A program made the position numbers and the translations under genes. From assembly GCF_024502345.1 (NCBI RefSeq), contig NZ_JALDNN010000001.1: DNA of 64,000 nt; one strand, written 5' to 3'. The notes beneath the pieces were generated by a model. It saw nothing but the letters and a program-made list of their open reading frames with translations, had not been told where the DNA came from and searched no databases. Below are positions 1,721 to 21,069 of this stretch, in pieces. Position 1 is the first letter of the stretch. Each line of letters opens with the position of its first letter. The stretch is from Escherichia coli (lineage in GTDB: Bacteria; Pseudomonadota; Gammaproteobacteria; Enterobacterales; Enterobacteriaceae).

Positions 1721-2332
1721 TTACCTCTGACGCGCTTTGCGCAAACGCCAACTAAGAAGCAAAAGAGTCATACCGAAGATCGCAGCATGGAAACCCAATA
1801 CCCAGCCCGCGGCCAGAAATGATTCGATCGGGCGGGTAAAAAACATCCATAGGATGATCGCACCGAGGAGCACGGAAAGCAGCCCGCTGAGGGCAAGCCA
1901 GATCTCGCCCTTGATTTCCCGGCGCAGACGAACGGCGGCGGATATCTCCAGCATACCGGTGAAAATTGCCCAGAATGCCACGCTTACCCACAAGAAATAG
2001 GCCAACGCCAAAGTGGCAGCCAGAGGGGCAACTACCACAACGACACCGGTGAGTATGCCGACGATGCCGCTGAACAACAGCCAGCCCCAGCGCTGCTTTT
2101 GCCGCATTTGCCGCACCGCTGCAACCAGGTTGAACGCACCATTGACCAAAGAAAATGCGCCGAACACTATCGTCATGGCGAACAAAGCCGAGTGTGGCAT
2201 CCAGAATGCGAGGACTGCAAAAATCAACGCGAATATGCCGCGCAGCGCAAACAACCACCAATTTTGGGTCAGTGAACACACGGCATCGGCAGGGTTATCC
2301 GCATTCGAATCGGCGATGGTATTTGCATTCAT
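1721..2332 (-). CDS. hdeD: HdeD-family (DUF308) inner-membrane acid-stress protein
   Basis: 203 aa, about six predicted hydrophobic helices, position between yfdX and trx as in LHR. Confidence 0.75.
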   Translation of the reverse strand: MNANTIADSNADNPADAVCSLTQNWWLFALRGIFALIFAVLAFWMPHSALFAMTIVFGAFSLVNGAFNLVAAVRQMRQKQRWGWLLFSGIVGILTGVVVVVAPLAATLALAYFLWVSVAFWAIFTGMLEISAAVRLRREIKGEIWLALSGLLSVLLGAIILWMFFTRPIESFLAAGWVLGFHAAIFGMTLLLLSWRLRKARQR

Positions 2333-2417
2333 GCGATATCTCCTTGATGGATCATGAGATCAGGAAAATCAAGCCTTCATCGCGAAGAGAGGGGCTATTC
2401 GCCCCTCTCTTGCGGTT

Positions 2418-3305: not shown

Positions 3306-3407
3306 GGTGATATGCCTCGTATGAGATAGTGAAAATAGGGGAATCTATTGGGGCCGACTGCGAATATCGCGAGACTGACCGATGGAGCAGTCGGCCCCTT
3401 CATCACC

Positions 3408-4337
3408 TCAAAACAGCTTTTGGATGCGCGTCTTCAACTCGTCGAACCATCCATTGCCGCTTTTGCCACCAGCCGACTTTTGCTCAATGGACTTCACCTG
3501 ATCGAAGATGGGTTTGAAGTCCTCCTTCTTGCCATAACCCAGGATTTGCGCCAGCTCGATCTCCGTGCGCACGGACGACAGCAAGGTGCTGAGCTCCTCG
3601 TTCTGCTTGGCATCGCGCTTGTCAGTCTCGGCCAGCTTTTCAGCTTTTGCCATCGCGGCTTCGGCCCGTAGCACGGGCAGAGGGAGTACAACTTGGGTGA
3701 CCACCAGCGTGTTCAGTGCTCGGGCGAGTTCCGCCTTGGCGTTGTCGATCTTGCCGCTGTCGATGAGCCGTGCGGCCGACTTGATCGCTGCCGGGTACGT
3801 TGCCATCGGCAGGTTGTCGGTTTCGATCACGATTTCGCTGGCAAGATTGGCAACAATGGGCCGTGCCTTTTGCACCTCGCCATCATCCAACAACTCCTGA
3901 GACAACTTGACCGCTTTCTTGACCGATTCCACGTCGGCGTGGATGTCATGGGTGATGACGCTTACATCGACGGGCGCCAAAGCAATTTTTGGCTCACGCG
4001 CCAATACCAGTTCCAGCTTTCCGCTGGCCAGTTCCAGCGCAGCGAGCGCCTCCTTGGTCTTCTTTGCATCAAGGAGGATCAATGCCTCATGGGTCTTGGC
4101 CAGCGCAGTGATTGCATCTTGGGCGAGTTCGGCGCGCTTCTTCGCGGCTTCCCGGGCGACCTTGTCATCTACCTGTGGCAGCGCCGCTTTGGATGCGGCA
4201 GAGGGTGCTGCAGCACCTGGGCTAGAACCTGCCGCCGATTGGGCCAGAGCCGGTCCGCTCAGTCCGACGACGACCGCCAGGGCAAGTGCGGAGAAGATGT
4301 ATTGTGGCTGTTTGATATTCATGATGTTGGACTCCAA
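3408..4337 (-). CDS. YfdX-family periplasmic protein (first copy), signal peptide
   Basis: 309 aa; N-terminal signal-peptide-like hydrophobic segment; paralog of 2418-3305. Confidence 0.7.
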   Translation of the reverse strand: MESNIMNIKQPQYIFSALALAVVVGLSGPALAQSAAGSSPGAAAPSAASKAALPQVDDKVAREAAKKRAELAQDAITALAKTHEALILLDAKKTKEALAALELASGKLELVLAREPKIALAPVDVSVITHDIHADVESVKKAVKLSQELLDDGEVQKARPIVANLASEIVIETDNLPMATYPAAIKSAARLIDSGKIDNAKAELARALNTLVVTQVVLPLPVLRAEAAMAKAEKLAETDKRDAKQNEELSTLLSSVRTEIELAQILGYGKKEDFKPIFDQVKSIEQKSAGGKSGNGWFDELKTRIQKLF

Positions 4338-4343
4338 TTGAAG

Positions 4344-4802
4344 TTAATTGACTGAAATTTCAATCTGTTTCGGTTTGGCTTGCTCGGCCTTGACAAGCCG
4401 CACTTCCAGCACGCCGTCTTTCATGGAAGCCGTCACCTTGGTCGGATCAACGTTGTCAGGCAAGACAAAGCTGCGCACAAAGCGGCCATACGCACGTTCG
4501 ATGCGGTGGAACTTCTTGCCCTGCTCCTCTTTTTCCAGTTTGCGCTCGCCGCTGATGGTGAGCACACCGTTTTCCGCGCTGACGCGCACGGCATCCTTGG
4601 GGACCTCCGGCAGATCCAGCTTGAGGAGGAATGCGTTCTCATCCTCGCTGATGTCCACCATTGGTGCCCAGTCCGCCGTGGTCATGGCTTCGTTGCCGGT
4701 ACGGGCGCCCTGTCGCTGGGGTGTCCGTCCCAACATCGTCGCCAGGCGGTTTTGCAATTCATCCAGTTCCCGGAAGGGGTCCCACGGAGTCAATGCAGAC
4801 AT
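4344..4802 (-). CDS. Small heat shock protein, Hsp20/alpha-crystallin family (sHsp-GI)
   Basis: Alpha-crystallin domain (ISEDENAFLLKLDLPEV...GVLTISGER...GVLEVRLVK); start taken at internal Met (track ORF extends to 4865). Confidence 0.8.
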   Translation of the reverse strand: MSALTPWDPFRELDELQNRLATMLGRTPQRQGARTGNEAMTTADWAPMVDISEDENAFLLKLDLPEVPKDAVRVSAENGVLTISGERKLEKEEQGKKFHRIERAYGRFVRSFVLPDNVDPTKVTASMKDGVLEVRLVKAEQAKPKQIEISVN

Positions 4803-4896
4803 ATCGGTTCTCCTTGAACAATGCCGGTGAATTGGATGACGCACCGAACAGAGCCGCCGGCTCACTCTGAATAGCGCCTATTACTTTTCGTTTCTA

Positions 4897-6231
4897 TCAA
4901 GAACAGGCCATGAGCAAGAATAGTCCATGAAGCAATAGCGCATGTCCCATCTCGTGATAGGCCACGGTTTCCCGCTCCTTCGGATTGAGCACACGGTTCT
5001 TCCTTTCCAGGCCGGCCACGATGCGCTCGATGGCGGCGGTGAAGTCTTGCAGCTCCACAGCCTGCGCCTTGCGCCGCGTCGCGTTCAGCGCTGCTTCGTT
5101 CACGAGATTGGCCAGATCAGCGCCGGAAAAGCCGGTGGTCAACGCCGCCACCTGTTCCAGATCTACACCGTGGGCCAGGGTGATCTTCTTGACATGGACC
5201 TTCAGGATATCCAGGCGACCTTTCTTGTCGGGACGGTCCACCAGCACCTGACGGTCGAAGCGACCGGCACGAAGCAAGGCCTGATCGAGGATTTCGGGGC
5301 GGTTGGTGGCGGCGAGGATGATCAGCCCGACCGAGCTGTCGAAGCCATCCATTTCGGTGAGCAACTGGTTCAGCGTCTGCTCACGCTCGTCGTGTCCGCC
5401 GGTCGGTCCTCCGACACCGCGTGCGCGGCCCAAAGCATCCAGCTCATCAATGAAGATGATCGCCGGCGCCTGCCCGCGCGCCTGCTCGAACAGGTCGCGC
5501 ACGCGCGCCGCACCCACGCCGACGAACATCTCGACGAACTCCGAGCCTGAGATGGAAAAGAACGGTACCCCGGCCTCGCCCGCCACGGCCTTGGCCAGCA
5601 GGGTCTTGCCCGTGCCCGGCGGGCCAACCAGCAACACACCTTTCGGGATGCGCGCGCCGAGGCGGCCGTAATCCTGCGGGTTCTTCAGGAAGTCGACGAT
5701 TTCGACCAGCTCGGCCTTGGCCTCATCGACACCCGCGACATCGGCAAAGGTGACGCCGGTGTTCTTCTCCATGAACACCTTGGCGCGGCTCTTGCCGATG
5801 CTCAGGAAGCCGCCCATGCCCTGCTTCTCGGCGAAGCGGCGGAACAGGAAGAACCAGACGCCGAAGAAGGCCACCGCCGGCAGAATCCAGGAGAGCACAT
5901 CACGTAGCCAGGTGCTTTCCACCACCCGCGCGTAGGGCACCTCGTACTTGGACAGCCGCTCGGCCAGGTCGGGTTCGACGCGAGTGGCCACGATGGTGGT
6001 CTTGCCCCGGCTGTCCGGCGATTTCAGGCGCCCGGTGACCGTGCGGTCCGACACCAGCACTTCGGCGACGCGCCCCTCGGCCAGCGCCTTCTCGAATTCG
6101 CTGTAGGGCACGGGCTCGACGGTCTTGGCCGCCTGCCAGTAGTTCTGCAGCGTCAGCAGCAACAGGCCGGCGACGATCCAGTAGCCAATGTTCCATTGAT
6201 CTTTCTTTTCCATGGGCAATGTTCCTCGCAA
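4897..6231 (-). CDS. FtsH-like AAA+ protein, C-terminally truncated (ends at the HEMGH zinc-binding motif; M41 peptidase domain absent)
   Basis: N-terminal TM segment plus AAA module (GPPGTGKT Walker A, DELD Walker B); ORF stops 12 codons after HEMGHA; only 31 bp to next gene; downstream bases AT-richer. Confidence 0.75.
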
Positions 6232-6240
6232 GTCGTGCCG

Positions 6241-7701
6241 CTAGAGAATGGGGGTGAACAGACGGGCCACCCCGTCGCGCAAGCGCATGGCCAGCGGGTG
6301 GGCGCGCAACGCCTTCGCCGATATCTCGCCCGACACATCACGAGCGGCATCAAAAAGGGATGACAGCCGCGTAGACAACGCGGTGTCGTACACCTCCACA
6401 TTGAACTCGAAGTTGAGGCGCAAACTGCGCGCATCCCAATTGGCCGAACCCAGGCAGCACCACGCTCCGTCTACCAGCATCAGCTTGCTGTGGTCGAACG
6501 GGCCAGGCCGTTCGAAGATGCGCACACCGTGCTCCAGCACCTGCCAGTAGTGGGCGCGCGCGGCCCATTGCACCGTGGGATGGTCGCCGTTTGCGGGCGT
6601 CAGCACGTCGATACGCACGCCGCGCAACGCGGCCGTGCTCAGCGCCGCGATCATCGGCTGATCGGGGACGAAGTAAGGTGTCCAGATGCGCACCGAATGC
6701 TTCGCCGCGCTCAAAGCGCCCATGAAGGTCCAGCGCATCCGGTCCAGGGCCTCGTCGGGACCGGCCTCGATGCCGCGCGCCCAACTGGTTCCCGGCTCAT
6801 CAGCCGTTACGGGCGGTTCGCCCCAGAAACCCTCGTTGAGCCGCTCGCCCGTGGTATCGCACCAATCATCGGTGAAGCTCCGCATCAGATGCTCCACCAC
6901 CGGCCCGCGCAGACGAAAGTGCAAATCGTGACAGGCCTGGTCCGGCGCATCGGGCCGCCAGTACGGGCTGAAGATGTTCAATCCGCCGGTGAAACCCGTC
7001 TCGCCATCGATCACCAGCAGCTTGCGGTGATTCCGCAGATGCGCGGCATGCAGGCGCGCGGGAATCAATGTCGGGTTGAACGTCGCCGCCGGAACGCCGG
7101 CGCGCTGCAAGGCGCGGTAGGCGCTGCGGGGCGTCCAGCGGGCATACACGTCGTCGATCAGCACCCGCACTTGCACGCCGCGCTCATGAGCCCGGCGCAG
7201 CGCATCGACGAACTGCGCCCCGATGCCTTGGCTGTCGAAGATGTACGAGGTCAAGGCGACGCTGTACCGCGCCGATTCGATGGCGGCGAGCATGGCCGGG
7301 TAGGCCTGCTCGCCATCGACAAGCGGCTCGATGCGGTTGCCGCCGGTCAGCGACTGGCCGGTGGCGCGTCCCACCAGGTGGGCCAGACCGGCAAGTGGCG
7401 GCGATACAGCCTCGGGTATCGTGGGCGAGAGATCCTGCCGAACAGCAGGATCTGCCCCCGGGAAGAGCCGCCGCGCCCGCCGCTGGTAACGGTTGATGCC
7501 GAACAGCCCATACAGCAGCGAACCGCCCAGCGGCAGCAAGGCGATCAGCAGTACCCACAGCGTGGCCGATCGAGGGTCACGCTTGTAGATGACCGCATGC
7601 CCCGCTGTGGGGATAGCGACCGCCAGCGACACGAGGGTGGCTGCCCATGTCAGCCCATTGGGGTCGGACACGACAGCCTCCCATCGCTCAAGATTCGCCA
7701 T
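6241..7701 (-). CDS. cls: Cardiolipin synthase-like phospholipase D family protein
   Basis: Two HxKxxxxD motifs (HRKLLVID, HSKLMLVD); N-terminal membrane helices; about 487 aa from internal Met (track ORF 6241..7884 overlaps clpK). Confidence 0.8.
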   Translation of the reverse strand: MANLERWEAVVSDPNGLTWAATLVSLAVAIPTAGHAVIYKRDPRSATLWVLLIALLPLGGSLLYGLFGINRYQRRARRLFPGADPAVRQDLSPTIPEAVSPPLAGLAHLVGRATGQSLTGGNRIEPLVDGEQAYPAMLAAIESARYSVALTSYIFDSQGIGAQFVDALRRAHERGVQVRVLIDDVYARWTPRSAYRALQRAGVPAATFNPTLIPARLHAAHLRNHRKLLVIDGETGFTGGLNIFSPYWRPDAPDQACHDLHFRLRGPVVEHLMRSFTDDWCDTTGERLNEGFWGEPPVTADEPGTSWARGIEAGPDEALDRMRWTFMGALSAAKHSVRIWTPYFVPDQPMIAALSTAALRGVRIDVLTPANGDHPTVQWAARAHYWQVLEHGVRIFERPGPFDHSKLMLVDGAWCCLGSANWDARSLRLNFEFNVEVYDTALSTRLSSLFDAARDVSGEISAKALRAHPLAMRLRDGVARLFTPIL

Positions 7702-10537
7702 CCGCTGACTTCTTCTTGCGCGCAGGCTTGCTCGCGTCGCCAGGCGGTGCCTCGGCCACGTCCGCGGCATCGGGCTTTTCAGGCTCAGCCGACTTCGCGG
7801 GTGGCTCCTGGCGCTCGAAGACCACCCGTTCGGCCTTGTCGTCCCAGCGGGCGTTGGCGTGATCACCCTTGCCGATACCGCCACCCAGCATCTCGCGCGC
7901 CAGCGCGGTTTCCAGCTCGCTGCGGATCAGCCGCTTGAGCTCACGCGCGCCGAACTCGGGCTTGTAGCCTTCCTCCGCGAAGTGGTCGATCAAGGTCTGA
8001 TCGAAGGTCAGCGTCACGCCCTGGCTGGCGGCGTTGCGGGCCACACGATCAAGCTGCAGGCCGACGATATGGCGGATTTCCTCCTTGCCCAGCGCATGGA
8101 AGACGATGATCTCGTCGATGCGGTTGATGAACTCGGGGCGGAAGTGTCCGCGCAGCACGTCCATCACCTCGGACTTGGTCTTCTCGTATTCCTCGCCGGC
8201 GGCGCCACCGGCCTTCAGCCGACGCTGGATGATGTCCGAGCCCAGGTTCGAGGTGGCGATGATGATGGTATTGGTGAAATCCACCACCCGGCCCTTGCCG
8301 TCGGTGAGCCGCCCGTCGTCGAACACCTGCAGCAGGATGTTGTAGACGTCGGGGTGCGCTTTTTCGATCTCATCGAGCAGCAACACGCTGTAGGGCTTGC
8401 GACGCACCTTCTCGGTGAGCTGGCCGCCCTCGTCATAGCCCACATAACCCGGAGGCGCGCCCACCAGGCGTGCCACGGCATGGCGTTCCCCGTACTCGGA
8501 CATGTCGATGCGCAGCAGCGCACCTTCATCGCCATAGATGGACTCGGCCAGCGCCTTGGCGAGCTCGGTCTTGCCCACGCCGGTCGGCCCAAGGAACAGG
8601 AAAGTCGCCACCGGCTTGTCGCCTTCGCGCAGGCCCGCGCGCGACAACCGCACGGCATCGGCCACCGCGCGCACCGCTTCGTCCTGGCCCACCAGGCGCT
8701 CATGCAGCCGCTGCTCCAGATGCAGCAGCTTCTCGCGTTCTTCCACCGTCAGCTCGTTGACCGGAATGCCGGTCAGGCGCGAGACGATCTGCGCGACATG
8801 CTCGGCCTTGACTTCGGCGCTGCCCGAGGCGCGCTCGCGTTCCCATTCCTCGACGAGCTGCTTGAGTTCAGTCTCCTTGGCCTCGATGCGCTTGCCCAGC
8901 TCGGCGGCCTTGTCGTACTGCTTGCGCGAGGCCATGTAGTCCTGCTCACGCCGCAACTGGTGCAGTTCGGACTCCAGCTCCTGCACCGCCACCGGGCGAG
9001 CCGTGGCCGACAGCTTCACGCGTGCGGCCGCCTGGTCAAGCAGGTCGATGGCCTTGTCAGGCAAAAAGCGCGCGGTGATGTAGCGGTCCGACAACTCGGC
9101 GGCGGCGATGATCGCATCCTCGGTGATGCTGACCTTGTGGTGCGCCTCGAAGGTGTCGCGCAGGCCGCGCAGGATCATCATGGTCTGCGCTACCGTCGGC
9201 TCGGGCACCATCACCGGCTGGAAACGACGCTCCAGCGCGGCGTCCTTCTCGATGTACTTCTGATACTCGTTGAGCGTGGTGGCGCCGATCAGGTTCAGTT
9301 CGCCGCGCGCCATCATCGGCTTGAACACGTTGGCCACGTCCAGCCCGCCTTCGCCGCCACCCTGGCCTGCACCGACGATGGTGTGCACTTCATCGATGAA
9401 GAGAATCATCTCGCCCTGGTGCTCGGTCACTTCCTTGAGCACCTTCTGCACGCGCTCCTCGAACTCGCCGCGATACTTGGCGCCTGCCACCATGGCGTTG
9501 ATGTTGAGCTCGACCAGACGCTTGTCGCGCAGCGTCTCGGGCACTTCACCGGCGACCATGCGCTGCGCCAGCCCTTCGACAATGGCGGTCTTGCCGACGC
9601 CGGGCTCACCGATCAACACCGGGTTGTTTTTCTTGCGCCGGGCCAGCACCTCGATGGTGGTCTCGATCTCCTGCGCACGGCCGATGACTGGATCGAGTTT
9701 GCCCTCGCGCGCCATCTTGGTGAGGTCGCGCGAGTATTTATCCAGCTCGGGCGTGTTGGTCGGCGTCTCGGCGCGGCCATCCTCGGCCCCTTTGCCGACC
9801 ACCTTGCTTACCTGCTGGCGCAGCGCTTGCGGCGTGAGGCCGTAACGGCGCAGCAGGTTGGCCGCCAAACCTTCGCCTTCCTCAGCGAGCCCGATCAGGA
9901 AATGCTCCGGCCCGACATAAGAGTGGCCGAGTTCGTTGGAGGCCACGAAAGCGCGGCTGAGCGCGTCCTTGACCCGGGGCGACACGCCGACTTCGCCCTC
10001 GAACGGCTTCTCGCCGCGCTTGGCTTCGGATTCGATCTGTCGCTTGAGGTCATCGACCTTGATCTTGAACTGTCCCAGGATGGTCTTCACCACGTCGCTG
10101 TCGGATAGCGCCAGCAGCAGGTGTTCGGTATCGACTTCGGCGCGCCCGAACTCTGCAGCGTGTCGGGCGGCCTCCTGCAATAGGGCCTCGGACTGTTCGC
10201 TGATACGGCTGGCGAGCCCACTGCCGCGACGGCGCGCAGTGCCCGTACCGGCCGGGGCGGGTTCGCCGAACGAGGCATCGACCACCTCGTCGGTATCGGC
10301 CGCCATGGACGGCGAATCGTCACCGATGCGGAAGAAGTCGCTGCCGAGGAAGTCTTCGAACAAGCCGCTGCGCGAGCCAAACAAGGCTTCCAGCGGCGAG
10401 ACGGTGCGCTTTTGCTGGCGCGCCAGTTGGCGATAGTGATCGTCACACAACAGCATGGTGCTGTGGCGACCATTGAGATTGGCTTCCACCCGCACCGTGG
10501 CGGGCTGGCCGCAGACCTGGCATTGTTTTCTGGCCAT
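7688..10537 (-). CDS. clpK: ClpK/ClpG-type Clp AAA+ disaggregase with N-terminal zinc-ribbon-like extension
   Basis: Two AAA modules (GEPGVGKT and GPTGVGKT Walker A), Clp-N region, CQVCGQ...CDDHY N-terminus; AAGGAG RBS 7 nt upstream of chosen ATG; about 949 aa. Confidence 0.9.
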
Positions 10538-10634
10538 GCTCATGCTCCTTGAGAGGACTGATTTGACGAGGCGCCGAAGGTCACGGCGCCTCGCCATTCA
10601 CTTGGTTTTTCTGTAGAGAACAAGCCGATCGGCG

Positions 10635-11204
10635 TCAGCCGTTGATCGGGATCGAGCGGCCCTGCTTGGGCGCACTGGCCTCGCGCTTTTCCATTGTGAT
10701 CGTGAGTACGCCGTTCTTGAAAGCGGCCTTGATCGTGTCCTGGTTGGCATCGGTCGGCAGGTTCAGAGCGCGCTGAAAGCTGCCGTAGGAGCGCTCCACC
10801 CGGTGGAAACCGCCGTCTTTGCTTTCCTGCTCCTGACGCTTTTCACCGCGAACCAGCAGCACGTCGTTGTCGAGCGTGATATGGATGTCTTTTTCCTCGA
10901 CGCCGGGAACCTCCAAAGAAATCTTGTACTGCTTGTCGGTCTCCTGGATGTCCAGCGCCGGCTTCAGCAGGCCCGGCCAGTCCGACGGCCAGCGTGGCAT
11001 GGCCAGCGCCGGAAAGCCGAAGCCTCGAAACGTGTCGTCGAAGAGGCGGTCGATCTCGCGGTGCAATTGCAGGATGGGACTGACGGGCCCACCCGCTACC
11101 GGCAGGTCATTGCGCTGCACCGGCAGCGAGGCAGTGCTCTGTTGTTCTTCCTGCTCCTTCTTGAACCAGTTCCAGGGAGCCAACTTCTTGAAATCAATGT
11201 CCAT
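10635..11204 (-). CDS. Small heat shock protein Hsp20 (sHsp20)
   Basis: Alpha-crystallin domain (DIQETDKQYKISLEVPGV...GVLTITMEK); GGAGG RBS before internal ATG (MDIDFKK). Confidence 0.85.
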   Translation of the reverse strand: MDIDFKKLAPWNWFKKEQEEQQSTASLPVQRNDLPVAGGPVSPILQLHREIDRLFDDTFRGFGFPALAMPRWPSDWPGLLKPALDIQETDKQYKISLEVPGVEEKDIHITLDNDVLLVRGEKRQEQESKDGGFHRVERSYGSFQRALNLPTDANQDTIKAAFKNGVLTITMEKREASAPKQGRSIPING

Positions 11205-11239
11205 GTCACACCTCCAGAACAAAAATTGAAGACTCTCGC

Positions 11240-11521
11240 TCACTCCGTTTGCCTGCGGCTATGGATAGCGCGCCCAGGCAACACGGGATGTTTCGCTGAC
11301 TTCGGCTGCTCATCTGTACGTATCACCTCCTTCTTTCTGCCTGCTTGGATCTGATCATTGATCCATCGATCGATTTCACTTTGACGAAACCGCCACGTCC
11401 CGCCGACCTTGAAGGCCGGAATCTCCCCGTGCGCGGCGAGCCGGTAGAGCGTCCGCTTGCCGACCTTTAAGTAGGTAGCCAACTCGTCGAGTGTGAAGAT
11501 CGCCTGCTGGCGCGCTGTCAT
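11240..11521 (-). CDS. Small HTH DNA-binding protein (AlpA/excisionase/MerR-like), first gene of the heat-resistance locus
   Basis: Motif LDELATYLKVGKRTLYRLAAHGEIPAFKVGGTWRF typical of HTH_17/excisionase-type regulators; 4-nt overlap with sHsp20 ORF. Confidence 0.6.
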   Translation of the reverse strand: MTARQQAIFTLDELATYLKVGKRTLYRLAAHGEIPAFKVGGTWRFRQSEIDRWINDQIQAGRKKEVIRTDEQPKSAKHPVLPGRAIHSRRQTE

Positions 11522-12028
11522 ACCACCCCCACAAGTTCCGTCGTCACGCGGCCTCGCCTGAGGAAGTTCTTGCAAGACTTTGCAAGATATTGCGCCTAAT
11601 ATGCCAAAAGTCAAGAGTCAACATCCAGCGATCTGCTGGCCGATTGATGTGACTCAAATCTTCAAGGACGGTATGCCAGGGCGGGCCGGTCCGGCGCAGG
11701 GGACGGTGGGTTGATCGGGACCTTGCGGGCGCCGCCCACGGCCGCAGATCAAACACCGATCCTCACGTTGTAACCGAGCGCCCGCAGCCCCTTGCTCGTG
11801 CGCATGTTCCTTGGCGGAAACTCGTCTGGGCGCGCCCAGCCGACGATTTCCCCGAGGCTGCTCAGGCCAATGTGCGGAATTGCCCAGTCGTCGCTGCGGA
11901 TCGCGTTCCAGAGTCGGGCCGAAAAACCTCCGTTGCCCCAGACAACGTAGTTCAACAGTATCCGTCCTGCCAACACACCTTCCCGACACCGCCGCCGAAG
12001 GCCATGGCCCATCAAGCGGATTTTCCAT

Positions 12029-12639: not shown

Positions 12640-14497
<1,858 letters not shown>

Positions 14498-14505
<8 letters not shown>

Positions 14506-16000
14506 TCCATCTTCCTATCAATCGAATGAACGCAGTGGTCAGTGGTGCCACCCTGCTTTTTTCCAATCCACAACGCTTTTCCAGCTCCCAGCGCCTAGAC
14601 GTTATGCCTGTCTGTACATCCTTCAGCATCGCTGCAGTCAGGCGACGGATCTGATACTCGCCGACGGACTCGGCATAGCGATCCAGGAAGGTGCAGCAAA
14701 GAGGCAATTGATCGAGACGGTGCTCGACTGATGCCCGATGGGGTAGCTGCTGCAGGAACCAGTTGCGACTCCTGCGCGGAAGGCCCAGGTCTTCTTCGCT
14801 ACCTCTACCAATCCGGATCAGCAGGCGCACCAACCTTATGTCACGCGCTCGCCAGTCGATGTGGCTGTTGTTGCCCTGTCGGCGCTGCCTGACCTGGTTC
14901 GCAACCATCAGCCAGTGTCGGTCATGACGATAGAGCCAGGCGTAACATGCCCCTGCTCCGTCTTGCCTGGCTGCCTTGGCTCCACCGTGATTAGCCAGTG
15001 CTTGCAGCCAAATGGCTCGGTACTGCTGCTTTTGCTCAAACTCAGCAGGGAGCAGCTGCACTGACCGCTCGGAGGCAAGGTCGACCTGGCGAGTCTTCGC
15101 CTCGCTGATCAGCTCGCCAGCATGCTGGCCAGGGCGCAGGCTGGTCCAGACGATCAGATGCTGCAGCGCACTGAATCCCTTGCGATGCTTCCTGAACATC
15201 GCCAACAGCCAAGGTGGAGGCTCTCCGGATGTCAGCAGACCGTTCGCAGCAAGCCAATCCCTTTGATGGGATGCCAGGATCTTCTCCCAGATGACTTCAG
15301 CCCTGACCTGCCGGCCTCGCCTGGCGCCGCACTCTGTAGCCAGGTACCGGTACAGGTTGGTCCAGCGTCCGTAGCCAGGCGATTGCACCTCTTCGAGCGC
15401 CAGCAGCTGCATAGCAGCCTTGGCGAGCCTGATAGCCTCTTCGCCCACGGGACTCACGCGAAGATCACGGGGCAGAAACAGTGGAGAGGCTGTATGAAAC
15501 TCGTGCCGCTGCGCTCGACGGAACGGGATAGGTGAGTTCAGGAGCTGACAGCCATGCTCGGGACAGGCATCTATCCCTTGAATCTGCCAGCTGCGCCGCC
15601 AGTAGGGTTCACCGTAGCGCGCAGCCATATCTTCAAAGCAGATCGGGCAGTAACGCAGCCAATCGGGCCACTTGACCAAGGCCGTCGAGGCCCCAGACAG
15701 ACCAATCGTCGGCCGGTCGGGAGCAAGCATGGCCTGAAAAAGATCGGTACGGCGCTCCGGCGGAATGAAAGGGGCATAGAGCGGGAACAGCGTGTGATTC
15801 AGGATCATGCCTTCCGCATCCAAGCCCGTGTTGTTCGCCAACGCAGTCAGGTGTGTGGGCAGATCGGTGATCGCGGCAACCTTGCTGTCACCGAAAAGCA
15901 TGTGCAGCAAGGTCTTGTGGCTGCCTATCCCCAGATGTACCCGGCACCGGGCAATACCGCTGTAAAGCAGTTCGTCCGGGTAGAGCCTGGGGAAGTACAT
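14498..16000 (-). CDS. tnsD: TnsD/TniQ-family target-site selection protein
   Basis: 500 aa; N-terminal TniQ-like region (YPDELLYSGIARC) and CPICFED...CPEHGC zinc-finger motif. Confidence 0.75.
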
Positions 16001-16001: not shown

Positions 16002-17612
16002 TCAGCTCGCTCTCAGCAGAGGCCGTAGATCGAGGATCAAGCCAGCCTGCTTGAATCTGTCATAGGCCTCGCTTTCAGGCCCATCGGCATAACGTCGGCG
16101 CAGATCCTCCTCGGATAGGCACCCCCACTCCGTCCGCTTAACTCTGGAAATGCCGGGCCTCTTGGGAGCGTCCTGCGCGAGGTAGGCCGTGGCCTTGTGA
16201 ATCAGGGCCGCCAGCGGGATGTCCGGATTCTCCGCCAACAATTCATCGGCCATGGGAATGGCGATGTCCCTCGGGATTTCCATACCTTCGAGCAGGGCGG
16301 CCAACCGCTTTGCCTTGTCATCAGCCGGAGGGGCCGGTGGTTTAGGTTGGGGGACGCTATCCAGAGAGCGAGTCAGGGTCAGCAACCGTCCCTCGATCTC
16401 TGGCATCAGCAGGTCGTCATATTTGGCGATCAGCTCGGGCCTACCGCTCCGCAAGGCCGCCAGCATCGGATGGACCGGTTTGAACTCGTCCTCGAAAACC
16501 CTGCGCAGCAACAGCGGCTTAATGCACTCGACACCTGTCACTATCGCCCGGATCTGCGCCAGCGCGAACAGCTTGATGACGATGTCCATGACCCCTTGGG
16601 TGAGGTCGTACATCGTAGCCTCCAGTTCATCATCCAGCGGCGCCGCATTTCGCAGCCACTGATACTTCCAAAGCCGCTTCAACAGACGCTTCCAATGCTC
16701 GTCCCGAGGCAACCTATCCCAGCGGATGCTGCCCAACCCGGAGACCCGCCGAGCAGCCCGGAACGTGCGCTGGAAGAACTTGCTGGCCCGGTGGGTGCCG
16801 ACCTGAATGATCGGAACACCGATGGTGTTCACCAGCGACACGAAGAAATTGTGCATTTTTTCGGCACCACCGGAGCGTGCCTCGTTGAGGTTCTGAACCT
16901 CGTCGATGATCAGCACTCCGAGCGTGTGCAGATTGGCCAGCTGGCACATGGATGCCAGCAGACGTTTGGTACCCAGCTTCTTGCGTCCGTGGCTACGGCT
17001 GTAGTGGGTACCCAGGATCTTGTCTACTTCGTTGAAGAAGCTCAGGCACAGCTCATCCAAGTCACCGTCAATTGGGCAGTCGATCTTCAGGTAGACCAGT
17101 TGGGTGATGTCGTAATCAGGGTGATGGAGAGCTTGGGGGTACATGCCCAGAATCCGCTCCAGCGTGCGCGTCTTGCCGCAACCGGAGCAGCCGAACAGCG
17201 ACAGGCTGTTGGCCGTAGAGGAGACACTCTGGTACACCGCCGCATCCAGATCCTCCTCCTCGACACGGCGATAGCCATTCTGCAGGTGCGCATACCAGGC
17301 ACCGCTGGCCGGATTCCGACCGATGTACCCTTGACGGATCATCAGGCTGATCTTGCTCTCCAGCTCCAAGTGATGGCTCAGCGGCTGGAAGAAGCCGTGC
17401 AACAGGCGGGCAATCGCATGTGCCCTGAGCCGACCATCCAGAAGCGCCTCCTGCGGCTCGAAACCGGGAAGCTGCTGCAATAGATCGACCACCTCCTGCA
17501 GATCAGGAATCGGAGGCAATGCGCTGATGAGCGGATTGTCCTGATACTCGGGAAGCTGCTGCTCCTGGTAACGCGCCAGGGGAATGACTCCGCGCTGGAA
17601 TTCTTCAGTCAT
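16002..17612 (-). CDS. tnsC: TnsC AAA+ transposition regulator
   Basis: 536 aa; Walker A GCSGCGKT; Walker B-like IIDEVQN; placed between tnsB and tnsD. Confidence 0.8.
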   Translation of the reverse strand: MTEEFQRGVIPLARYQEQQLPEYQDNPLISALPPIPDLQEVVDLLQQLPGFEPQEALLDGRLRAHAIARLLHGFFQPLSHHLELESKISLMIRQGYIGRNPASGAWYAHLQNGYRRVEEEDLDAAVYQSVSSTANSLSLFGCSGCGKTRTLERILGMYPQALHHPDYDITQLVYLKIDCPIDGDLDELCLSFFNEVDKILGTHYSRSHGRKKLGTKRLLASMCQLANLHTLGVLIIDEVQNLNEARSGGAEKMHNFFVSLVNTIGVPIIQVGTHRASKFFQRTFRAARRVSGLGSIRWDRLPRDEHWKRLLKRLWKYQWLRNAAPLDDELEATMYDLTQGVMDIVIKLFALAQIRAIVTGVECIKPLLLRRVFEDEFKPVHPMLAALRSGRPELIAKYDDLLMPEIEGRLLTLTRSLDSVPQPKPPAPPADDKAKRLAALLEGMEIPRDIAIPMADELLAENPDIPLAALIHKATAYLAQDAPKRPGISRVKRTEWGCLSEEDLRRRYADGPESEAYDRFKQAGLILDLRPLLRAS

Positions 17613-19692
17613 CCTCTTCCTCCTTGAATATCAGGTCACTGAGATCTGGGAAGGCATAATCTTCCTGCTTCTCGCCCCGCAGTGGGATCACCTCGGCTGG
17701 CTTTTCCTGCTGTGCTTTATCCGGTTTGAATGCTGTTTTCTGGCGTTCCTGGCGCTTTTCCTGCTGCTTGTTCTCGCGGATCTGGGTTCCCAGATCCTTC
17801 GTGGTCATACCCGTTTTGAGCGGACTGGCATCCTCTGCCTGGGCAACGATGGACTCGATCTGCTTCAGAAGATTGCCTCTCTCTACCAAAGCTTCCGCCG
17901 CCGCGTTGGTATCGCTACGCCGTTCCTCTCTGGACAGCAGCCAGACATCCCAGAAGGTCATCCCCCTGAAGCGTCGACTGCGGTCGGCAAGATCGCAAAC
18001 CCAGTAGTCCTTGAGACTATTGGACGGCCGCAGGTAGATGTGGTCGGCGCTACGCGGATCGTATGCGACCGTTACCCCTGTCGGCCGGCGCCCCTGGCCT
18101 CGGTGAAACCAACCCTCCCTGATTGCTTCCTGGCAGGTGTAGAAGCAGCCGAACAGTCTGATTCCCAGCTCCGAAACCGTGGCCGACTCATGGGGCAAGA
18201 GATTTATCCGCACCAGCTCCTCGGGCGCAGTACGTAACCGGCCGGTCAAGTTGGCCAAGCCCCAGTTCCACAGCATGACCGGGATGGCTGGCAGATCGCC
18301 CGGCATACCAGAGGTTCTGTCGTATTTGCTCAAGGTATGAAAGTTGTTGTGGTAGAGGATGCCGGCAATGATGATCTGGGTGAACTCGGGCAAGGTCAGA
18401 CTGGCATCAAGTCTGTAGTCGTGGCCACCCCGCTTCCGGCTGGTGGTGTCCTCGACCACACCGCTGGCATAGGGCTTGAAACGCTCCTGCACCGTCCGGA
18501 AATAACGCTCGACGATCCCCTTGGCATCTCCTCGCCTGGCCGGTGCATTCTCGATGCGAACGCCGAAGGCTTGGGAAAATGCTTCCACCTTGGTGCCATT
18601 CAGTTCGCCCTTATCGGCCAGCACCACATCCGGCAAGCCTTTGACCGGCCAGTCGCTGGCATCGATCTCCACGCTATACTGGCGGCAATACTCAACCTTG
18701 TCGGCGACCGTGTTGGCCAATGCCACCATGGCACTGACCCAGGAAGGTCCCTCGAATCCGACGTACATACCAACGACCATGCGGCTGAACACGTCGATCA
18801 CCATGTAAACGACAGGCCTGCCGACGATAAGGCTGCGATCATGTTCTGAAACCAGATAGATATCGGCGATGGTGGCATCGATCTGGTAGCGGTATCCTGG
18901 CCCCAGTGCCTCGGTCGTCGATGTACTGCTGAGCGGTCGGAAGTCCTTGGCAAAATCCACTGCGGACACCCTGCATGGCAAGGTGTCGGTGAAGTGATAT
19001 TCGCGCCCATAGAAGTAACGGAACTGCCCCAATGTAGGCAGTTCGGAGGTCGGCAGCTCCGTCAGAACAGCACGGAGCAGATTCAGCCCGGCGGCGTAGG
19101 CATCAGGAATGGACGGATGTTTTTCCTTGAGCAAACGTTCCTCGATGACCCGGCGAAAAATGCGCTCGATGTCCGGCGTGACATTGCTCCCTTTCCCCTC
19201 CATCACCACTCTGGGCCTGCCCAGCTTGGCCTGGTTCGGCTTTCTGCGCTTGCCACGGGCGCCCGAGTTGACATAGTCCGGCAAGAGGGCATTCCTGCAC
19301 ATGCCTCGCTGCCAGTAGCGCCTCAGTAACCTATACACCGTCTGATTGGTGACACCATGGCGCTCCATGATGCCTCTGACAATGAGCCCTCTGGGGCGCC
19401 GCACGAAAAGCTGGGGGTTGTGCACAAAATCCGCCAGCATTCCCCAAGCTTCATCACGCTTCTGCTGATCAAGGGAACCTTCCTCAACCTCCCGTAGGAC
19501 TGTTTCCTCGAAGGGATCGGCAATGCTCTCCAGCTCCCGCTCCATGATCAGACGCTCCAGCTCTACAATCGATATCGGTTCGGGCAACGCCGTGTCCGAA
19601 TCGATATCGATCCAGATTGCCTGCTCGGTACCGGACCAAAGCAGGCGCTTTCGCAGTTCCCCCATCCGGAACACCTGATTAACGGGCAACAC
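17605..19692 (-). CDS. tnsB: TnsB DDE transposase (retroviral-integrase-like core)
   Basis: 695 aa; N-terminal HTH, central rve-like core (YQIDATIADIY...VIDVFSRM...), similar in size to Tn7 TnsB. Confidence 0.85.
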   Translation of the reverse strand: MLPVNQVFRMGELRKRLLWSGTEQAIWIDIDSDTALPEPISIVELERLIMERELESIADPFEETVLREVEEGSLDQQKRDEAWGMLADFVHNPQLFVRRPRGLIVRGIMERHGVTNQTVYRLLRRYWQRGMCRNALLPDYVNSGARGKRRKPNQAKLGRPRVVMEGKGSNVTPDIERIFRRVIEERLLKEKHPSIPDAYAAGLNLLRAVLTELPTSELPTLGQFRYFYGREYHFTDTLPCRVSAVDFAKDFRPLSSTSTTEALGPGYRYQIDATIADIYLVSEHDRSLIVGRPVVYMVIDVFSRMVVGMYVGFEGPSWVSAMVALANTVADKVEYCRQYSVEIDASDWPVKGLPDVVLADKGELNGTKVEAFSQAFGVRIENAPARRGDAKGIVERYFRTVQERFKPYASGVVEDTTSRKRGGHDYRLDASLTLPEFTQIIIAGILYHNNFHTLSKYDRTSGMPGDLPAIPVMLWNWGLANLTGRLRTAPEELVRINLLPHESATVSELGIRLFGCFYTCQEAIREGWFHRGQGRRPTGVTVAYDPRSADHIYLRPSNSLKDYWVCDLADRSRRFRGMTFWDVWLLSREERRSDTNAAAEALVERGNLLKQIESIVAQAEDASPLKTGMTTKDLGTQIRENKQQEKRQERQKTAFKPDKAQQEKPAEVIPLRGEKQEDYAFPDLSDLIFKEEEDD

Positions 19693-20506
19693 TGCTCAGC
19701 TCCTGATGCATTTGATGAGAGTTGGCAACCAGGTCTTTCGGCTTCAGCTCCCGGTAAGGAGTGTCAAGATCGAAAAGGAAACAGTGCCGGGCCAGCAACT
19801 GGCGTAGCCAATAGAGCGCCTGACCGGCCTCCAGCTGGCCGGAGGTATCCAGTCCTTGGGCAATAGCGGTCAGCTTCCGGTCTGGGTGACGCTGAAACTC
19901 GAGCAGAAACAGCTGCTGGTAATGGGCGAGATCGTCCTGAGCGATGTCGCCTTCAGCATGGGCAGGATAGAGCCATTGGATATTGGCAAATGCCACCTTG
20001 GATACCTCGCGCTCCGTAACGATGACCCAGGGAATACCTTTTTCCTGCCAGTAGCGCCTTTCAAGCTCAAGCCTCTCGATAACTTCAGGCTTCTGCAGGT
20101 CGGTACTGTACTTGGCCTGAATCGCGATGCTCGGGCGCTGAGGATCTTCGAAATCCACCAGAAAGTCGCTGGTCAGTACCTGCGGGGTACCCTTGTAACA
20201 ACCGTGGGGCAGGCCAAGCTCCTCGGCGATGCGCACCGTATCTTCGACCCGCATCGGAAACTGTTCACGGATATCGGTGACATGGGGAGACCGATCCAAG
20301 GTCAGGAAGATGGCCAGTTCAAGATCGGATAGAAGATGGTGTAAACGCCGGGTCTTGCTGCCAGGCAGGCGGTGGGAGCGACCCAGCGAGGACACGTCCC
20401 TTGTGTAGATGAACGGCTTGTAGTCTGATCCCTGGCCTTGACCACGCCCGTCCTTGAGCCTTCTATCGATCTGGGCCTGGGTCAGCCCCTTGAATGTTCC
20501 AGACAT
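19679..20506 (-). CDS. tnsA: TnsA endonuclease
   Basis: 275 aa; blocks shared with Tn7 TnsA as I recall it (QIxRRxKxGRGQG, GRSHR, HHLLSDLELAxFL, DIREQFP, LELERRYWQ). Confidence 0.9.
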   Translation of the reverse strand: MSGTFKGLTQAQIDRRLKDGRGQGQGSDYKPFIYTRDVSSLGRSHRLPGSKTRRLHHLLSDLELAIFLTLDRSPHVTDIREQFPMRVEDTVRIAEELGLPHGCYKGTPQVLTSDFLVDFEDPQRPSIAIQAKYSTDLQKPEVIERLELERRYWQEKGIPWVIVTEREVSKVAFANIQWLYPAHAEGDIAQDDLAHYQQLFLLEFQRHPDRKLTAIAQGLDTSGQLEAGQALYWLRQLLARHCFLFDLDTPYRELKPKDLVANSHQMHQELSSVAR

Positions 20507-20565
20507 GAGAAAGCCTGCCCCCGCTGTGTCGATGACCTCAACATAGCGGATGCAGGCTCAGAATG

Positions 20566-20626
20566 AAACTTTATTTATACGGATGATACTTTATTTATAC
20601 GGATGAACCTTTATTTGCATCCCACA
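20566..20626. repeat. Tn7-like right-end terminal repeats (putative TnsB binding sites) ending in terminal 5'-TGTGGG on the complementary strand
   Basis: Three tandem about 20-bp repeats: ACTTTATTTATACGGATGA (x2) then CCTTTATTTGCATCCCACA; about 120 bp upstream of tnsA start. Confidence 0.75.
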
Positions 20627-20703
20627 CATTTTACTTAAGGCATAAGCGGTAGAGTTGAGTGATAACCCTTCCATAATTTCATTTTCTAACACACTAATTT
20701 AAT

Positions 20704-21069
20704 TTAGTGTGAATTTCCACTTTTAGTCATTATCGCTATCGCTTCATCGATAGTCGGTATTGTAAAGAGAGAATTCTCTCTACAATCCTTGCGAATAACC
20801 TTCCTGTTTTTTTGAACAGAAATATTTTCGCACCAGGCTAATGTCCCGGTGAAATGCTTTTCTTCCATCCTCATATCTAGAAAAGCAAGTCGATCATTAA
20901 GGGATTGCATATCTTCAGTTACAGTAGAGGGACCTGATTCTAACAGTTCCAGACGGCTTTCCACATCAGCAACCTTGCCTTTAACCTGTGAGACGTCTTC
21001 TGCTAACTTTTCATGTCTGTGGATAGTATCAGCAAGTGCTCGTGAGTTTTGGGCGAATATCTCAGCCAT
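20704..21069 (-). CDS. Hypothetical coiled-coil protein (low-GC module)
   Basis: 121-aa ORF, heptad-like charged/hydrophobic pattern; no recognisable motif. Confidence 0.35.
   Translation of the reverse strand: MAEIFAQNSRALADTIHRHEKLAEDVSQVKGKVADVESRLELLESGPSTVTEDMQSLNDRLAFLDMRMEEKHFTGTLAWCENISVQKNRKVIRKDCRENSLFTIPTIDEAIAIMTKSGNSH

What the first reader, a model, noticed from the sequence alone, without database searches (positions are those of the whole stretch)
20521..20640. Tn7-like right end: three tandem about 20-bp repeats and a TGTGGG terminus
AAACTTTATTTATACGGATGA, TACTTTATTTATACGGATGA and ACCTTTATTTGCATCCCACA are contiguous and end at 20626, with tnsA starting about 120 bp inside. 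This mirrors the clustered TnsB sites of Tn7-R but with a different consensus, which defines the element as a distinct Tn7-like family member and gives an exact junction with the low-GC flank.
Basis: seen in the sequence. Interest (0 to 1): 0.5.

Follow-up and report, generated by a model that had tools for sequence, protein, structure and literature searches.

The report
Right end of heat-resistance Tn7-like transposon
This is the real right-hand end of a Tn7-family jumping gene that carries the bacterial "locus of heat resistance"; its boundary is exact to the base, but it is an ordinary member of a well-understood transposon family.

Summary
Window 20557-20626 is the right end of a 27-29 kb Tn7-family transposon (tnsABCDE on the minus strand, 12883-20506). 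[quoted passage not shown]

- **Junction.** Dozens of plasmids and chromosomes match up to exactly 20626 and then diverge. E. coli genomes without the element match from exactly 20627.
- **Left end.** It lies outside the window. I recovered it from near-identical genomes: it starts with the same TGTGGGATGCAAATAAAG, and the insertion is flanked by a 5-bp duplication, CATTT. Four other independent insertions also have perfect 5-bp duplications.
- **Architecture.** It matches Tn7-R: an 8-bp terminus, then 22-bp sites overlapping by 2 nt, giving 20-bp spacing. There are three sites, not Tn7's four. The core is AAATAAAG-NN-TCATCC. It shares the AATAAAG half with Tn7 and differs in the other half.
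- **Targeting.** Relatives, some ≥99% identical in their Tns proteins, sit 25 nt downstream of glmS, as Tn7 does. The window copy is at a non-glmS site.

Two side findings: a covarying hairpin directly upstream of tnsA, and 328-bp miniature derivatives in Pseudomonas.

Verdict: new member of a known kind, low interest.

The parts
20619..20626 (-). 8-bp terminal sequence TGTGGGAT. On the + strand the element ends ...ATCCCACA-3' at 20626.
   Evidence: The same 8 bp, inverted, starts the left end in L002/L004/L005. All database matches break at 20626.
20597..20618 (-). Predicted TnsB-binding site R1, positions 9-30 from the terminus; core GCAAATAAAGGTTCATCC.
   Evidence: Position-weight-matrix score 25.8 bits. 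Same position and spacing in diverged relatives. TnsB binding is inferred, not tested.
20577..20598 (-). Predicted TnsB-binding site R2, positions 29-50, overlapping R1 by 2 nt; core ATAAATAAAGTATCATCC.
   Evidence: The 20-bp spacing equals the 2-nt overlap shown to be essential in Tn7-R (PMC9308760).
20557..20578 (-). Predicted TnsB-binding site R3, positions 49-70, the innermost; core ATAAATAAAGTTTCATTC. A -35-like TTCATT lies at 20562-20567.
   Evidence: In Tn7 the innermost site overlaps the predicted tnsAB promoter; here that is by analogy only.
20511..20559 (-). Hairpin between the last site and tnsA: AGCCUGC-A-UCCGCU ... AGCGGG-G-GCAGGCU, followed by UUUCUC and the AUG. A -10-like TATGTT (20540-20545) sits between the consensus stem arms, inside the longer fold of this copy.
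   Evidence: Inverted repeat 20512-20532 / 20538-20558. MFE -36.1 kcal/mol, z -4.9. Covariation in 11 relatives. No Rfam family. Function is inferred.
19679..20506 (-). tnsA, 275 aa, intact. Endonuclease subunit of the heteromeric transposase.
   Evidence: Matches Tn7 TnsA structure 1f1z, E 1.9e-60, over residues 7-271. E63, D114 and K132 are invariant in the alignment. 100% identical to RefSeq-annotated TnsA on plasmids.
17605..19692 (-). tnsB, 695 aa. DDE transposase that would bind the end repeats.
   Evidence: Full-length match to Tn7 TnsB 7pik, E 2e-187. The DDE residues align as IDAT, ADKGE and GIVE.
16002..17612 (-). tnsC, 536 aa. AAA+ regulator.
   Evidence: Matches Tn7 TnsC 7mbw/8glu, E 1.2e-122.
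14498..16000 (-). tnsD, 500 aa. TniQ-family selector of the glmS attachment site.
   Evidence: Matches Tn7 TnsD 8glu_X, E 1.3e-46. Relatives are inserted 25 nt downstream of glmS.
12883..14505 (-). tnsE, 540 aa ORF. Alternative target selector.
   Evidence: C-terminal domain matches Tn7 TnsE 5d16, E 1.7e-10. RefSeq annotation of the near-identical gene.
37..11614 (-). Cargo: locus of heat resistance (trx-GI ... clpK 7688-10597 ... hsp20, HTH regulator). It is cut by the window start; the left end lies about 8.4 kb beyond position 1, by comparison with L005.
   Evidence: ClpK model NF033606, 2152.9 bits. Annotated relatives. Window 6-21911 is 99.8% identical to L005.
20627..20631 (+). Right-hand copy of the 5-bp target-site duplication, CATTT.
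   Evidence: Empty site GGCCATTTTACTTAAGG in L003. Left junction GGCCATTT|TGTGGG in L002/L004/L005.
20704..21069 (-). Flanking host ORF (hypothetical, 121 aa) reading towards the right end.
   Evidence: Present in genomes that lack the element.

Best explanation
Window 20557-20626 is the functional right end of a Tn7-family cut-and-paste transposon. The element is 26.9-29.1 kb, depending on IS insertions and cargo variant. It encodes TnsA, B, C, D and E just inside this end, and its cargo is the locus of heat resistance.

Reading inward from the terminus at 20626, there is an 8-bp terminal sequence TGTGGGAT. Its 3'-CA is where TnsB would cut and join. Three 22-bp TnsB-binding sites follow, overlapping by 2 nt, so the spacing is 20 bp. 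Their core is AAATAAAG-NN-TCATCC. The left end, outside the window, has the same terminus and three dispersed sites.

By analogy with Tn7, TnsB would tile on these sites and TnsA plus TnsB would excise the element. TnsC with TnsD would direct it to a point 25 nt downstream of glmS, or with TnsE to other targets such as plasmids. Insertion makes a 5-bp duplication. The window copy sits at a non-glmS site in a chromosomal island, next to a type III restriction-modification gene.

Shown here: the exact junction, the target duplications, the end architecture, the homology of the five proteins, and glmS targeting by relatives. Inferred: TnsB binding to the sites, the chemistry, and which pathway made this particular insertion.
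For: - **Junction.** Matches end at 20626 in 64 plasmids from Escherichia, Salmonella, Klebsiella, Acinetobacter and Pseudomonas, each with a different flank. In E. coli genomes, element-bearing records stop at query base 400 (20626) and empty-site records start at 401 (20627). The empty-site sequence was read directly.
- **Left end and duplications.** The left end, TGTGGGATGCAAATAAAGTTTCATCC, was found in three genomes that share this insertion. Five independent insertions have perfect 5-bp duplications: CATTT, GCAGC, GACGT, CCGAC and CCTTC. The left boundary is equally sharp in 71 plasmids.
- **Sites.** Six sites score 19.6-29.3 bits. All lie at the two ends and all point inward. Nothing else in the 29-kb element exceeds 12 bits. 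The right end has three sites at 20-bp spacing. The left end has sites at 9-30, 155-176 and 210-231.
- **Same plan in relatives.** Real Tn7 and five other relatives show the same layout, as described in PMC9308760.
- **Proteins.** All five Tns proteins match solved Tn7 proteins with catalytic residues kept.
- **glmS targeting.** The right end lies 25 nt from the glmS stop, right end proximal, in E. coli TC24 and in Aeromonas, Pantoea and several Pseudomonas species. These include copies ≥99% identical in their Tns proteins to the window's.
Against: - No binding or transposition was measured.
- The left end of this particular copy is not in the window, so its intactness is inferred from genomes that are 99.8% identical.
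- In those near-identical genomes tnsA is annotated as a broken pseudogene and one lineage lacks tnsC. Copies at this site may therefore be decaying, although the window's five tns ORFs are intact.
- NCBIfam models gave no hit to TnsA, C, D or E at E<=0.001.
- There are three right-end sites rather than Tn7's four.
- The left-end gaps (124 and 33 bp) are wider than Tn7's (42 and 31 bp).
Confidence: 0.93

Rival explanations
1. The 20-bp repeats are mainly an operator or promoter array for tnsA expression, or an unrelated tandem repeat, and the true transposon boundary is elsewhere.
For: In Tn7 the innermost site does double as an operator over the predicted tnsAB promoter (PMC9308760). A -35-like hexamer lies in site R3.
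Against: The boundary is fixed at 20626 by empty sites and by five perfect 5-bp duplications. The same motif recurs, inverted, at the other end about 29 kb away and nowhere in between. The array has only 2.7 copies. An operator role is compatible with, not opposed to, the end function.
Confidence: 0.03
2. The end is genuine, but this copy is an immobile relic: a fixed island that can no longer transpose.
For: Three near-identical genomes carry the element at the same site, consistent with vertical inheritance. Their tnsA is annotated as a pseudogene, one lineage has lost tnsC, and an IS21 has inserted in the cargo. The window begins with about 31 nt that the IS-free elements lack; this fits the end of that IS21.
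Against: In the window, tnsA to tnsE are all full-length ORFs that align end to end with Tn7 proteins. The right end is identical to ends of copies at many other sites. An IS in the cargo does not block transposition.
Confidence: 0.25
3. The junction reflects homologous or site-specific recombination of a larger island rather than Tn7-type transposition.
For: The insertion lies in a mosaic island with an integrase, IS elements and a YagK/YfjJ gene.
Against: The empty site differs from the filled site by the element plus exactly 5 duplicated bases. Unrelated targets show the same signature. No att-like repeats or integrase lie inside the element.
Confidence: 0.02

Closest known systems
Tn7 (prototype, as on pBS228 NC_008357.1; ends described in Kaczmarska et al. 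2022, PMC9308760)
   Same: Gene order tnsA-B-C-D-E reading inward from the right end. Terminus TGTGGG...; an 8-bp end followed by 22-bp sites overlapping by 2 nt on the right; three dispersed sites on the left. 5-bp target duplication. Insertion about 25 nt downstream of glmS with the right end proximal. The AATAAAG half of the site. A hairpin plus U-run just before the tnsA AUG.
   Different: TnsA is only 41% identical. Three right-end sites, not four. The distal half-site is TCATCC, not TAAACT. The terminal 8 bp is TGTGGGAT, not TGTGGGCG. Left-end gaps are 124 and 33 bp against 42 and 31 bp. The cargo is the heat-resistance locus, not a class 2 integron.
Tn7-like transposon carrying tdcA and LHR-syntenic genes in Pseudomonas aeruginosa CF39S (Almblad et al. 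2021, PMC8012707); the 'Tn7 elements' said to flank the tLST (Kamal et al. 2021, PMC8290217)
   Same: The same association of the heat-resistance locus with Tn7-type transposition genes. The GGDEF (tdcA-like) gene is part of the cargo in relatives.
   Different: In the text I could search, those papers give no terminal sequences, TnsB sites, target duplications or attachment site. I did not compare sequences with CF39S.
Tn6230 (Tn7-like, inserts between yhiN and yhiM in E. coli; PMC10121019)
   Same: A heteromeric-transposase element in E. coli.
   Different: A different attachment site. This family uses glmS. My initial recollection that this might be Tn6230 was wrong.
IS10/IS50 'protection from outside activation' (RBS-sequestering fold-back in read-through transcripts; from my own knowledge, not checked here)
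   Same: Relevant only to the side observation: a hairpin just upstream of the transposase start codon, whose 3' arm holds the G-rich stretch where a Shine-Dalgarno would be.
   Different: No transcript mapping exists here. In Tn7 the best scanner-called promoter would place the whole hairpin in the native leader.

Membership tests
Tn7 family (heteromeric TnsA+TnsB transposase elements) | Terminal 5'-TGT...ACA-3' 8-bp sequences, inverted at the two ends | tested here: met
   TGTGGGAT at 20619-20626 (minus strand). The same 8 bp, and 18 of 18 bases, start the left end in L002/L004/L005.
Tn7 family (heteromeric TnsA+TnsB transposase elements) | Asymmetric arrays of about 22-bp TnsB sites: contiguous with 2-nt overlap at the right end, dispersed at the left | tested here: met
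   Right-end sites at 9-30, 29-50 and 49-70. Left-end sites at 9-30, 155-176 and 210-231. All point inward. Criterion taken from PMC9308760.
Tn7 family (heteromeric TnsA+TnsB transposase elements) | 5-bp target-site duplication | tested here: met
   Five independent insertions, five perfect 5-bp duplications. Empty site read directly.
Tn7 family (heteromeric TnsA+TnsB transposase elements) | TnsA endonuclease with catalytic E63/D114/K132, and TnsB with a DDE triad | tested here: met
   the residues are invariant or aligned.
Tn7 family (heteromeric TnsA+TnsB transposase elements) | TnsC AAA+ regulator | tested here: met
   Matches Tn7 TnsC 7mbw, E 1.2e-122, over residues 13-471.
Tn7 family (heteromeric TnsA+TnsB transposase elements) | TnsB protein physically binds the repeats and cleaves at the terminal CA | not testable with these tools
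   Inferred from architecture and homology only.
Prototypic Tn7 clade (TnsABCDE, glmS attachment site) | TnsD-directed insertion about 25 nt downstream of the glmS stop, right end proximal | tested here: met
   Met for the family: E. coli TC24 (L019) and at least 12 species representatives, including copies ≥99% identical in Tns proteins in Pantoea and a Pseudomonadales MAG. Not met for the window copy, which is at a non-glmS site.
Prototypic Tn7 clade (TnsABCDE, glmS attachment site) | TnsE alternative pathway present | tested here: inconclusive
   The gene is present and homologous to the TnsE C-terminal domain. Many insertions are in conjugative or mobilizable plasmids. No test shows that TnsE made them.
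Tn7 itself (same element as the prototype) | Near-identical Tns proteins and Tn7's own end sequences (four right-end sites, ACAAAATAGTTGGGAACT-type consensus) | tested here: not met
   TnsA 41% identical. Three sites. Different distal half-site and different terminal bases 7-8.
Tn6230 | Insertion between yhiN and yhiM | tested here: not met
   The family inserts at glmS or elsewhere.

The most novel reading that the evidence does not exclude
The hairpin at 20511-20559, between the innermost TnsB site and the tnsA start codon, may be a conserved insulator of the Tn7 clade. Transcripts entering through the right end, for example glmS read-through at attTn7 or the flanking ORF here, would contain both arms. 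They would then form a terminator-like stem that also buries the tnsA ribosome-binding region. The element's own promoter has its -35 in the innermost TnsB site and its -10 (TATGTT here, TATGCT in Tn7) inside the hairpin region, upstream of the 3' arm. It would therefore start transcription downstream of the 5' arm and escape the block. This would be a Tn7 version of IS10-style protection from outside activation.
Probability: 0.3. Interest if true: 0.45.

Novelty: new member of a known kind. Interest (0 to 1): 0.25.

Why it matters
The heat-resistance locus (LHR/tLST) matters for food safety and hospital hygiene. The literature I could search describes it only as "flanked by mobile elements" or as lying in a "Tn7-like transposon", without ends (PMC4563881, PMC8290217, PMC8012707).

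Fixing the two termini, the 5-bp duplications and the glmS attachment site shows that, in these copies, the whole locus is cargo of a Tn7-family element with a complete tnsABCDE set and perfect target duplications at several sites. That would account for how this form of the locus reaches plasmids and chromosomes of Escherichia, Salmonella, Klebsiella, Acinetobacter, Pantoea and Pseudomonas. It also gives a simple sequence signature for tracking it.

For transposon biology it adds one more Tn7-clade end set, with a distinct half-site. That could mean a TnsB specificity separate from Tn7's, but this is untested. Nothing about the end itself would surprise a specialist.

Tried and rejected
- **Left end in the window.** I searched for the inverted terminus and for site-like 20-mers with up to 6 mismatches. 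Nothing was found, because the window starts inside the cargo.
- **NCBIfam on the tns ORFs.** No hit for TnsA, C, D or E, and only a weak IS481 hit for TnsB. Searches against solved structures replaced it.
- **Tn6230.** I recalled this as a possible identity. It is rejected because it inserts at yhiN/yhiM.
- **Tn6024.** It co-occurred with clpK in one table but is not informative.
- **Boll et al. 2017.** No mention of transposition genes.
- **Viral-contig scan with a TnsA alignment.** Only three distant loci; not used.
- **Promoter/terminator scanner.** No promoter and no terminator called in the window's right end. No terminator called in Tn7 or three relatives. A promoter matching my candidate was called only in L023. 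In Tn7 the scanner's own call lies upstream of the hairpin. The insulator idea therefore stays a hypothesis.
- **Rfam.** No family covers the hairpin.
- **A fourth right-end site.** The expected position (69-90 from the terminus) has no AAATAAAG. Only out-of-register CATCCG and TCATCG fragments occur.
- **More distant Tn7-like right ends.** Three (B. cereus, pNDM102337, Alteromonas) lack the pre-tnsA hairpin; for a fourth (Burkholderia) the annotated tnsA start falls within the site array, so it could not be judged. The hairpin appears to be a Tn7-clade feature, not a family-wide one.

Full report
**1. The observation**

Tandem Repeats Finder finds a single array there: 20563-20616, period 20, 2.7 copies, 91% matches. 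The repeat finder reports three 20-nt copies at 20-bp spacing. The inner 18-mer occurs twice in the window against 0.02 expected by chance. A 275-aa ORF starts at 20506 on the minus strand, position 121 from 20626. GC is 0.58-0.60 inside the element and 0.42 in the first 1.3 kb outside.

**2. What lies to the left**

Five minus-strand ORFs match solved structures of the Tn7 proteins.

| ORF | Gene | Best structure match |
|---|---|---|
| 19679-20506 | tnsA | 1f1z, E 1.9e-60 |
| 17605-19692 | tnsB | 7pik, E 2e-187, full length |
| 16002-17612 | tnsC | 7mbw, E 1.2e-122 |
| 14498-16000 | tnsD | 8glu_X, E 1.3e-46 |
| 12883-14505 | tnsE | 5d16, E 1.7e-10 |

The TnsA catalytic residues E63, D114 and K132 are invariant in an alignment of seven relatives. 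The TnsB DDE residues align with those of Tn7.

Further left is the locus of heat resistance: ClpK reaches 2152.9 bits on NF033606, and trx-GI, hsp20-GI, yfdX and others follow. The window starts inside this cargo. That is why the inverted terminus is not found in the window.

**3. The boundary**

- A 2-kb query across the junction matches 64 plasmids from Escherichia, Salmonella, Klebsiella, Acinetobacter and Pseudomonas. Every match stops at query base 1127, which is window 20626.
- An 800-bp query against 5,426 E. coli genomes splits cleanly. Records with the element and other flanks end at base 400 (20626). Records without the element begin at base 401 (20627). Three genomes carry the whole junction.
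- The empty site in strain 720632 reads GGCCATTTTACTTAAGG.
- In three genomes with the same insertion, the left junction reads GGCCATTT|TGTGGGATGCAAATAAAGTTTCATCC. The right junction reads ...GCATCCCACA|CATTTTACTTAAGG. So CATTT is duplicated.
- Four further complete copies on plasmids of Salmonella Senftenberg, E. coli, K. quasipneumoniae and K. variicola have perfect 5-bp duplications: GCAGC, GACGT, CCGAC and CCTTC. Element sizes across the complete copies examined are 26.9-29.1 kb.
- The left boundary is equally sharp in 71 plasmids.

**4. Anatomy of the end**

Read on the minus strand from 20626:

TGTGGGAT | GCAAATAAAGGTTCATCCGTAT / ATAAATAAAGTATCATCCGTAT / ATAAATAAAGTTTCATTCTGAG

The conserved core is AAATAAAG-NN-TCATYC at positions 11, 31 and 51.

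With the Tn7 convention (an 8-bp end, then 22-bp sites, with right-end sites overlapping by 2 nt; PMC9308760), the sites are 9-30, 29-50 and 49-70. In window coordinates these are 20597-20618, 20577-20598 and 20557-20578.

The left end has the motif at 9-30, 155-176 and 210-231. A matrix built from the six sites finds them at 19.6-29.3 bits, all pointing inward. Nothing else in the 29-kb element scores above 12 bits. That scan is partly circular, but the absence of interior matches is informative.

I fetched real right ends of relatives from plasmids.

| Right end | TnsA identity to window | Sites and spacing | Distal half-site |
|---|---|---|---|
| Tn7 (pBS228) | 41% | four sites at 20-21 bp (TGTGGGCG + GACAATAAAGTCTTAAACT...) | TAAACT |
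| K. pneumoniae relative (L009) | 42% | four sites | TCTAAA |
| Acinetobacter (L006) | 91% | three sites at 20 bp | TCATCC |
| K. quasipneumoniae (L007) | 67% | three sites at 20 bp | TCATCC / TCACC |
| A. baumannii (L008) | 46% | three sites at 20 bp | TCATAC |

Identities are from the protein alignment. The AATAAAG half is shared across the clade and the distal half differs. So "a different consensus" is half right.

**5. Target choice**

A copy whose right-end region is 97% identical at the DNA level, in E. coli TC24, has its right terminus 25 nt from the glmS stop codon. Next to it is the known TnsD-binding sequence ...AACCTGGCAAAATCGGTTACGGTTGAGTAA.

I scanned one genome per species for the terminal 26-mer and obtained 38 loci. 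In Aeromonas (three species), Pantoea, and P. alcaligenes, P. mendocina, P. indoloxydans and other Pseudomonas, the right end sits about 25 nt after the glmS stop, with tnsA next to it. The Pantoea copies (L040 next to glmS; L047 on a second genome) and a Pseudomonadales MAG (L031, next to glmS) have Tns proteins 99-100% identical to the window's.

The family therefore uses the canonical Tn7 attachment site and orientation. The window copy and the plasmid copies are at other sites. That is what the TnsE pathway would give, but I could not test which pathway was used.

**6. Comparison with what is published**

The LHR literature says the locus is "flanked by mobile elements" (PMC4563881). [quoted passage not shown] One paper draws a "Tn7-like transposon" with LHR synteny in P. 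aeruginosa (PMC8012707). In the text I could search, none gives ends, sites, duplications or an attachment site.

Only 64 plasmids carry the right end and 71 carry the left end. By contrast, 1,377 plasmid records match some part of the 20.6-kb query, which holds the tns genes as well as the cargo. So this transposon is probably one of several contexts in which these genes occur. The element is not Tn6230, which inserts at yhiN/yhiM.

I file it as a new member of a known kind: a sibling of Tn7 with its own site consensus.

**7. Side observation inside the finding's coordinates**

Positions 20511-20559 form a strong hairpin: 21-nt arms, MFE -36.1 kcal/mol, z -4.9. It ends 5 nt before the tnsA AUG and is followed by UUUCUC.

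The same position holds a hairpin plus U-rich tail in Tn7 itself and in five other clade members, with unrelated stem sequences (z -3.9 to -6.6). In an alignment of 11 right ends:

- a 14-pair stem has 6 pairs with compensatory double changes;
- 92.8% of cells are paired;
- the covariation score is 0.419 against 0.221 in shuffles (0 of 500 reach it);
- slid registers score at most 0.09.

The changes come from only about three lineages.

A -10-like hexamer lies between the arms of the consensus stem and is sequence-conserved while the arms covary: TATGTT here, TATGCT in Tn7. A -35-like hexamer lies in the innermost TnsB site. This suggests the insulator model given in the novel case.

Against it:
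- the simple scanner calls neither this promoter nor a terminator in the window;
- it calls no terminator in Tn7 or three relatives, and in Tn7 it prefers a promoter upstream of the hairpin;
- one paper states that Tn7R lets outside transcription enter (PMC3273789).

No Rfam family matches. Of four more distant Tn7-like elements examined, three lack the hairpin and one could not be judged because its annotated tnsA start falls within the site array.

**8. Side observation in related loci**

Five 327-328-bp elements consist only of a three-site left end and a two-site right end of this family.

- They occur in P. alcaligenes NBRC 14159 and P. oleovorans DSM 1045 and are 99-100% identical to each other.
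- Four have perfect 5-bp duplications.
- Two sit at the glmS site with the two-site end next to glmS.
- P. alcaligenes also holds a full element at glmS.

They look like non-autonomous miniature derivatives mobilised in trans. I could not establish whether such natural miniatures have been described.

**9. Verdict**

The finding is real and correctly interpreted, and it is now mapped to the base. It is an ordinary Tn7-clade right end. Its value lies in defining the vehicle of the heat-resistance locus.

Noticed in passing
window 20511-20559 (minus strand); also L006, L007, L008, L009, L011 (Tn7), L023, L030, L050: A strong hairpin followed by a U-rich run sits directly upstream of the tnsA AUG. 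It is conserved in position, with compensatory stem changes, across the Tn7 clade, including Tn7 itself. Three of four more distant Tn7-like elements examined lack it. There is no Rfam family, and the Tn7 papers I could read do not mention it. It may act as a terminator and RBS-sequestering insulator against read-through from glmS.
   Followed up: partly
L043 6614-6941, L044 3549-3876, L057 662-988, L058 4188-4515, L059 8834-9160: Miniature elements of 327-328 bp made only of this family's ends: three dispersed sites at one end, two overlapping sites at the other, and an internal GC-rich hairpin. They are 99-100% identical in two Pseudomonas species. Four of five have perfect 5-bp target duplications, and two lie at attTn7 next to glmS. 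They look like natural non-autonomous (MITE-like) Tn7-family derivatives.
   Followed up: partly
L038 2785-2814 and L041 1444-1473 (Ectothiorhodospira): A 30-bp perfect-terminus palindrome, TGTGGGATGAAAATAAAGTTTCATCCCACA, sits about 28 nt from the glmS stop. It is either a two-terminus micro-remnant at attTn7 or a chance extension of the dyad symmetry within the terminal site (GGATGAAA / TTTCATCC).
   Followed up: no
L055 1717-1773 (Pseudomonas sp. NW5): Two termini of two different variants of the family lie back to back, separated by exactly 5 bp (CACGG). This suggests adjacent insertions that share one target duplication.
   Followed up: no
window 1-36: The first 31-36 bases do not match the heat-resistance locus of IS-free elements. 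In the near-identical genomes an IS21-family element (istA/istB) sits between trx-GI and the cation:proton antiporter gene, so the window probably begins at the very end of that IS.
   Followed up: partly
window 4897-6231: The ftsH-like gene of the heat-resistance locus is a 444-aa ORF here. The gene is 1830 bp in other copies (L012), and RefSeq marks the near-identical copy as incomplete. This is a truncated cargo variant.
   Followed up: no
window about 11760-12800: Between tnsE and the heat-resistance operon, the near-identical records annotate small transposase fragments and a 102-bp 'ATP-binding protein' (tnsC-like) fragment. These may be debris of an older nested element. No end-like sites are found there.
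   Followed up: no
window 21876-24600: The type III restriction endonuclease gene next to the insertion appears as several consecutive minus-strand ORFs (446, 173, 237 and 114 aa). Related genomes annotate a single 3039-bp gene, so it may be frameshifted in this strain.
   Followed up: no
L012 560-570 and 27490-27500 (NZ_CP061755.1): One plasmid copy appears to be inserted inside an IS1, because its flanks match IS1 sequence seen in L002. In L002 an IS1 abuts the host flank 60 bp from the left end.
   Followed up: no
(plasmid collection): In Acinetobacter plasmids the left end is found in 42 records but the right end in only 11. Many Acinetobacter copies may be truncated, or may pair this left end with a diverged right end.
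   Followed up: no
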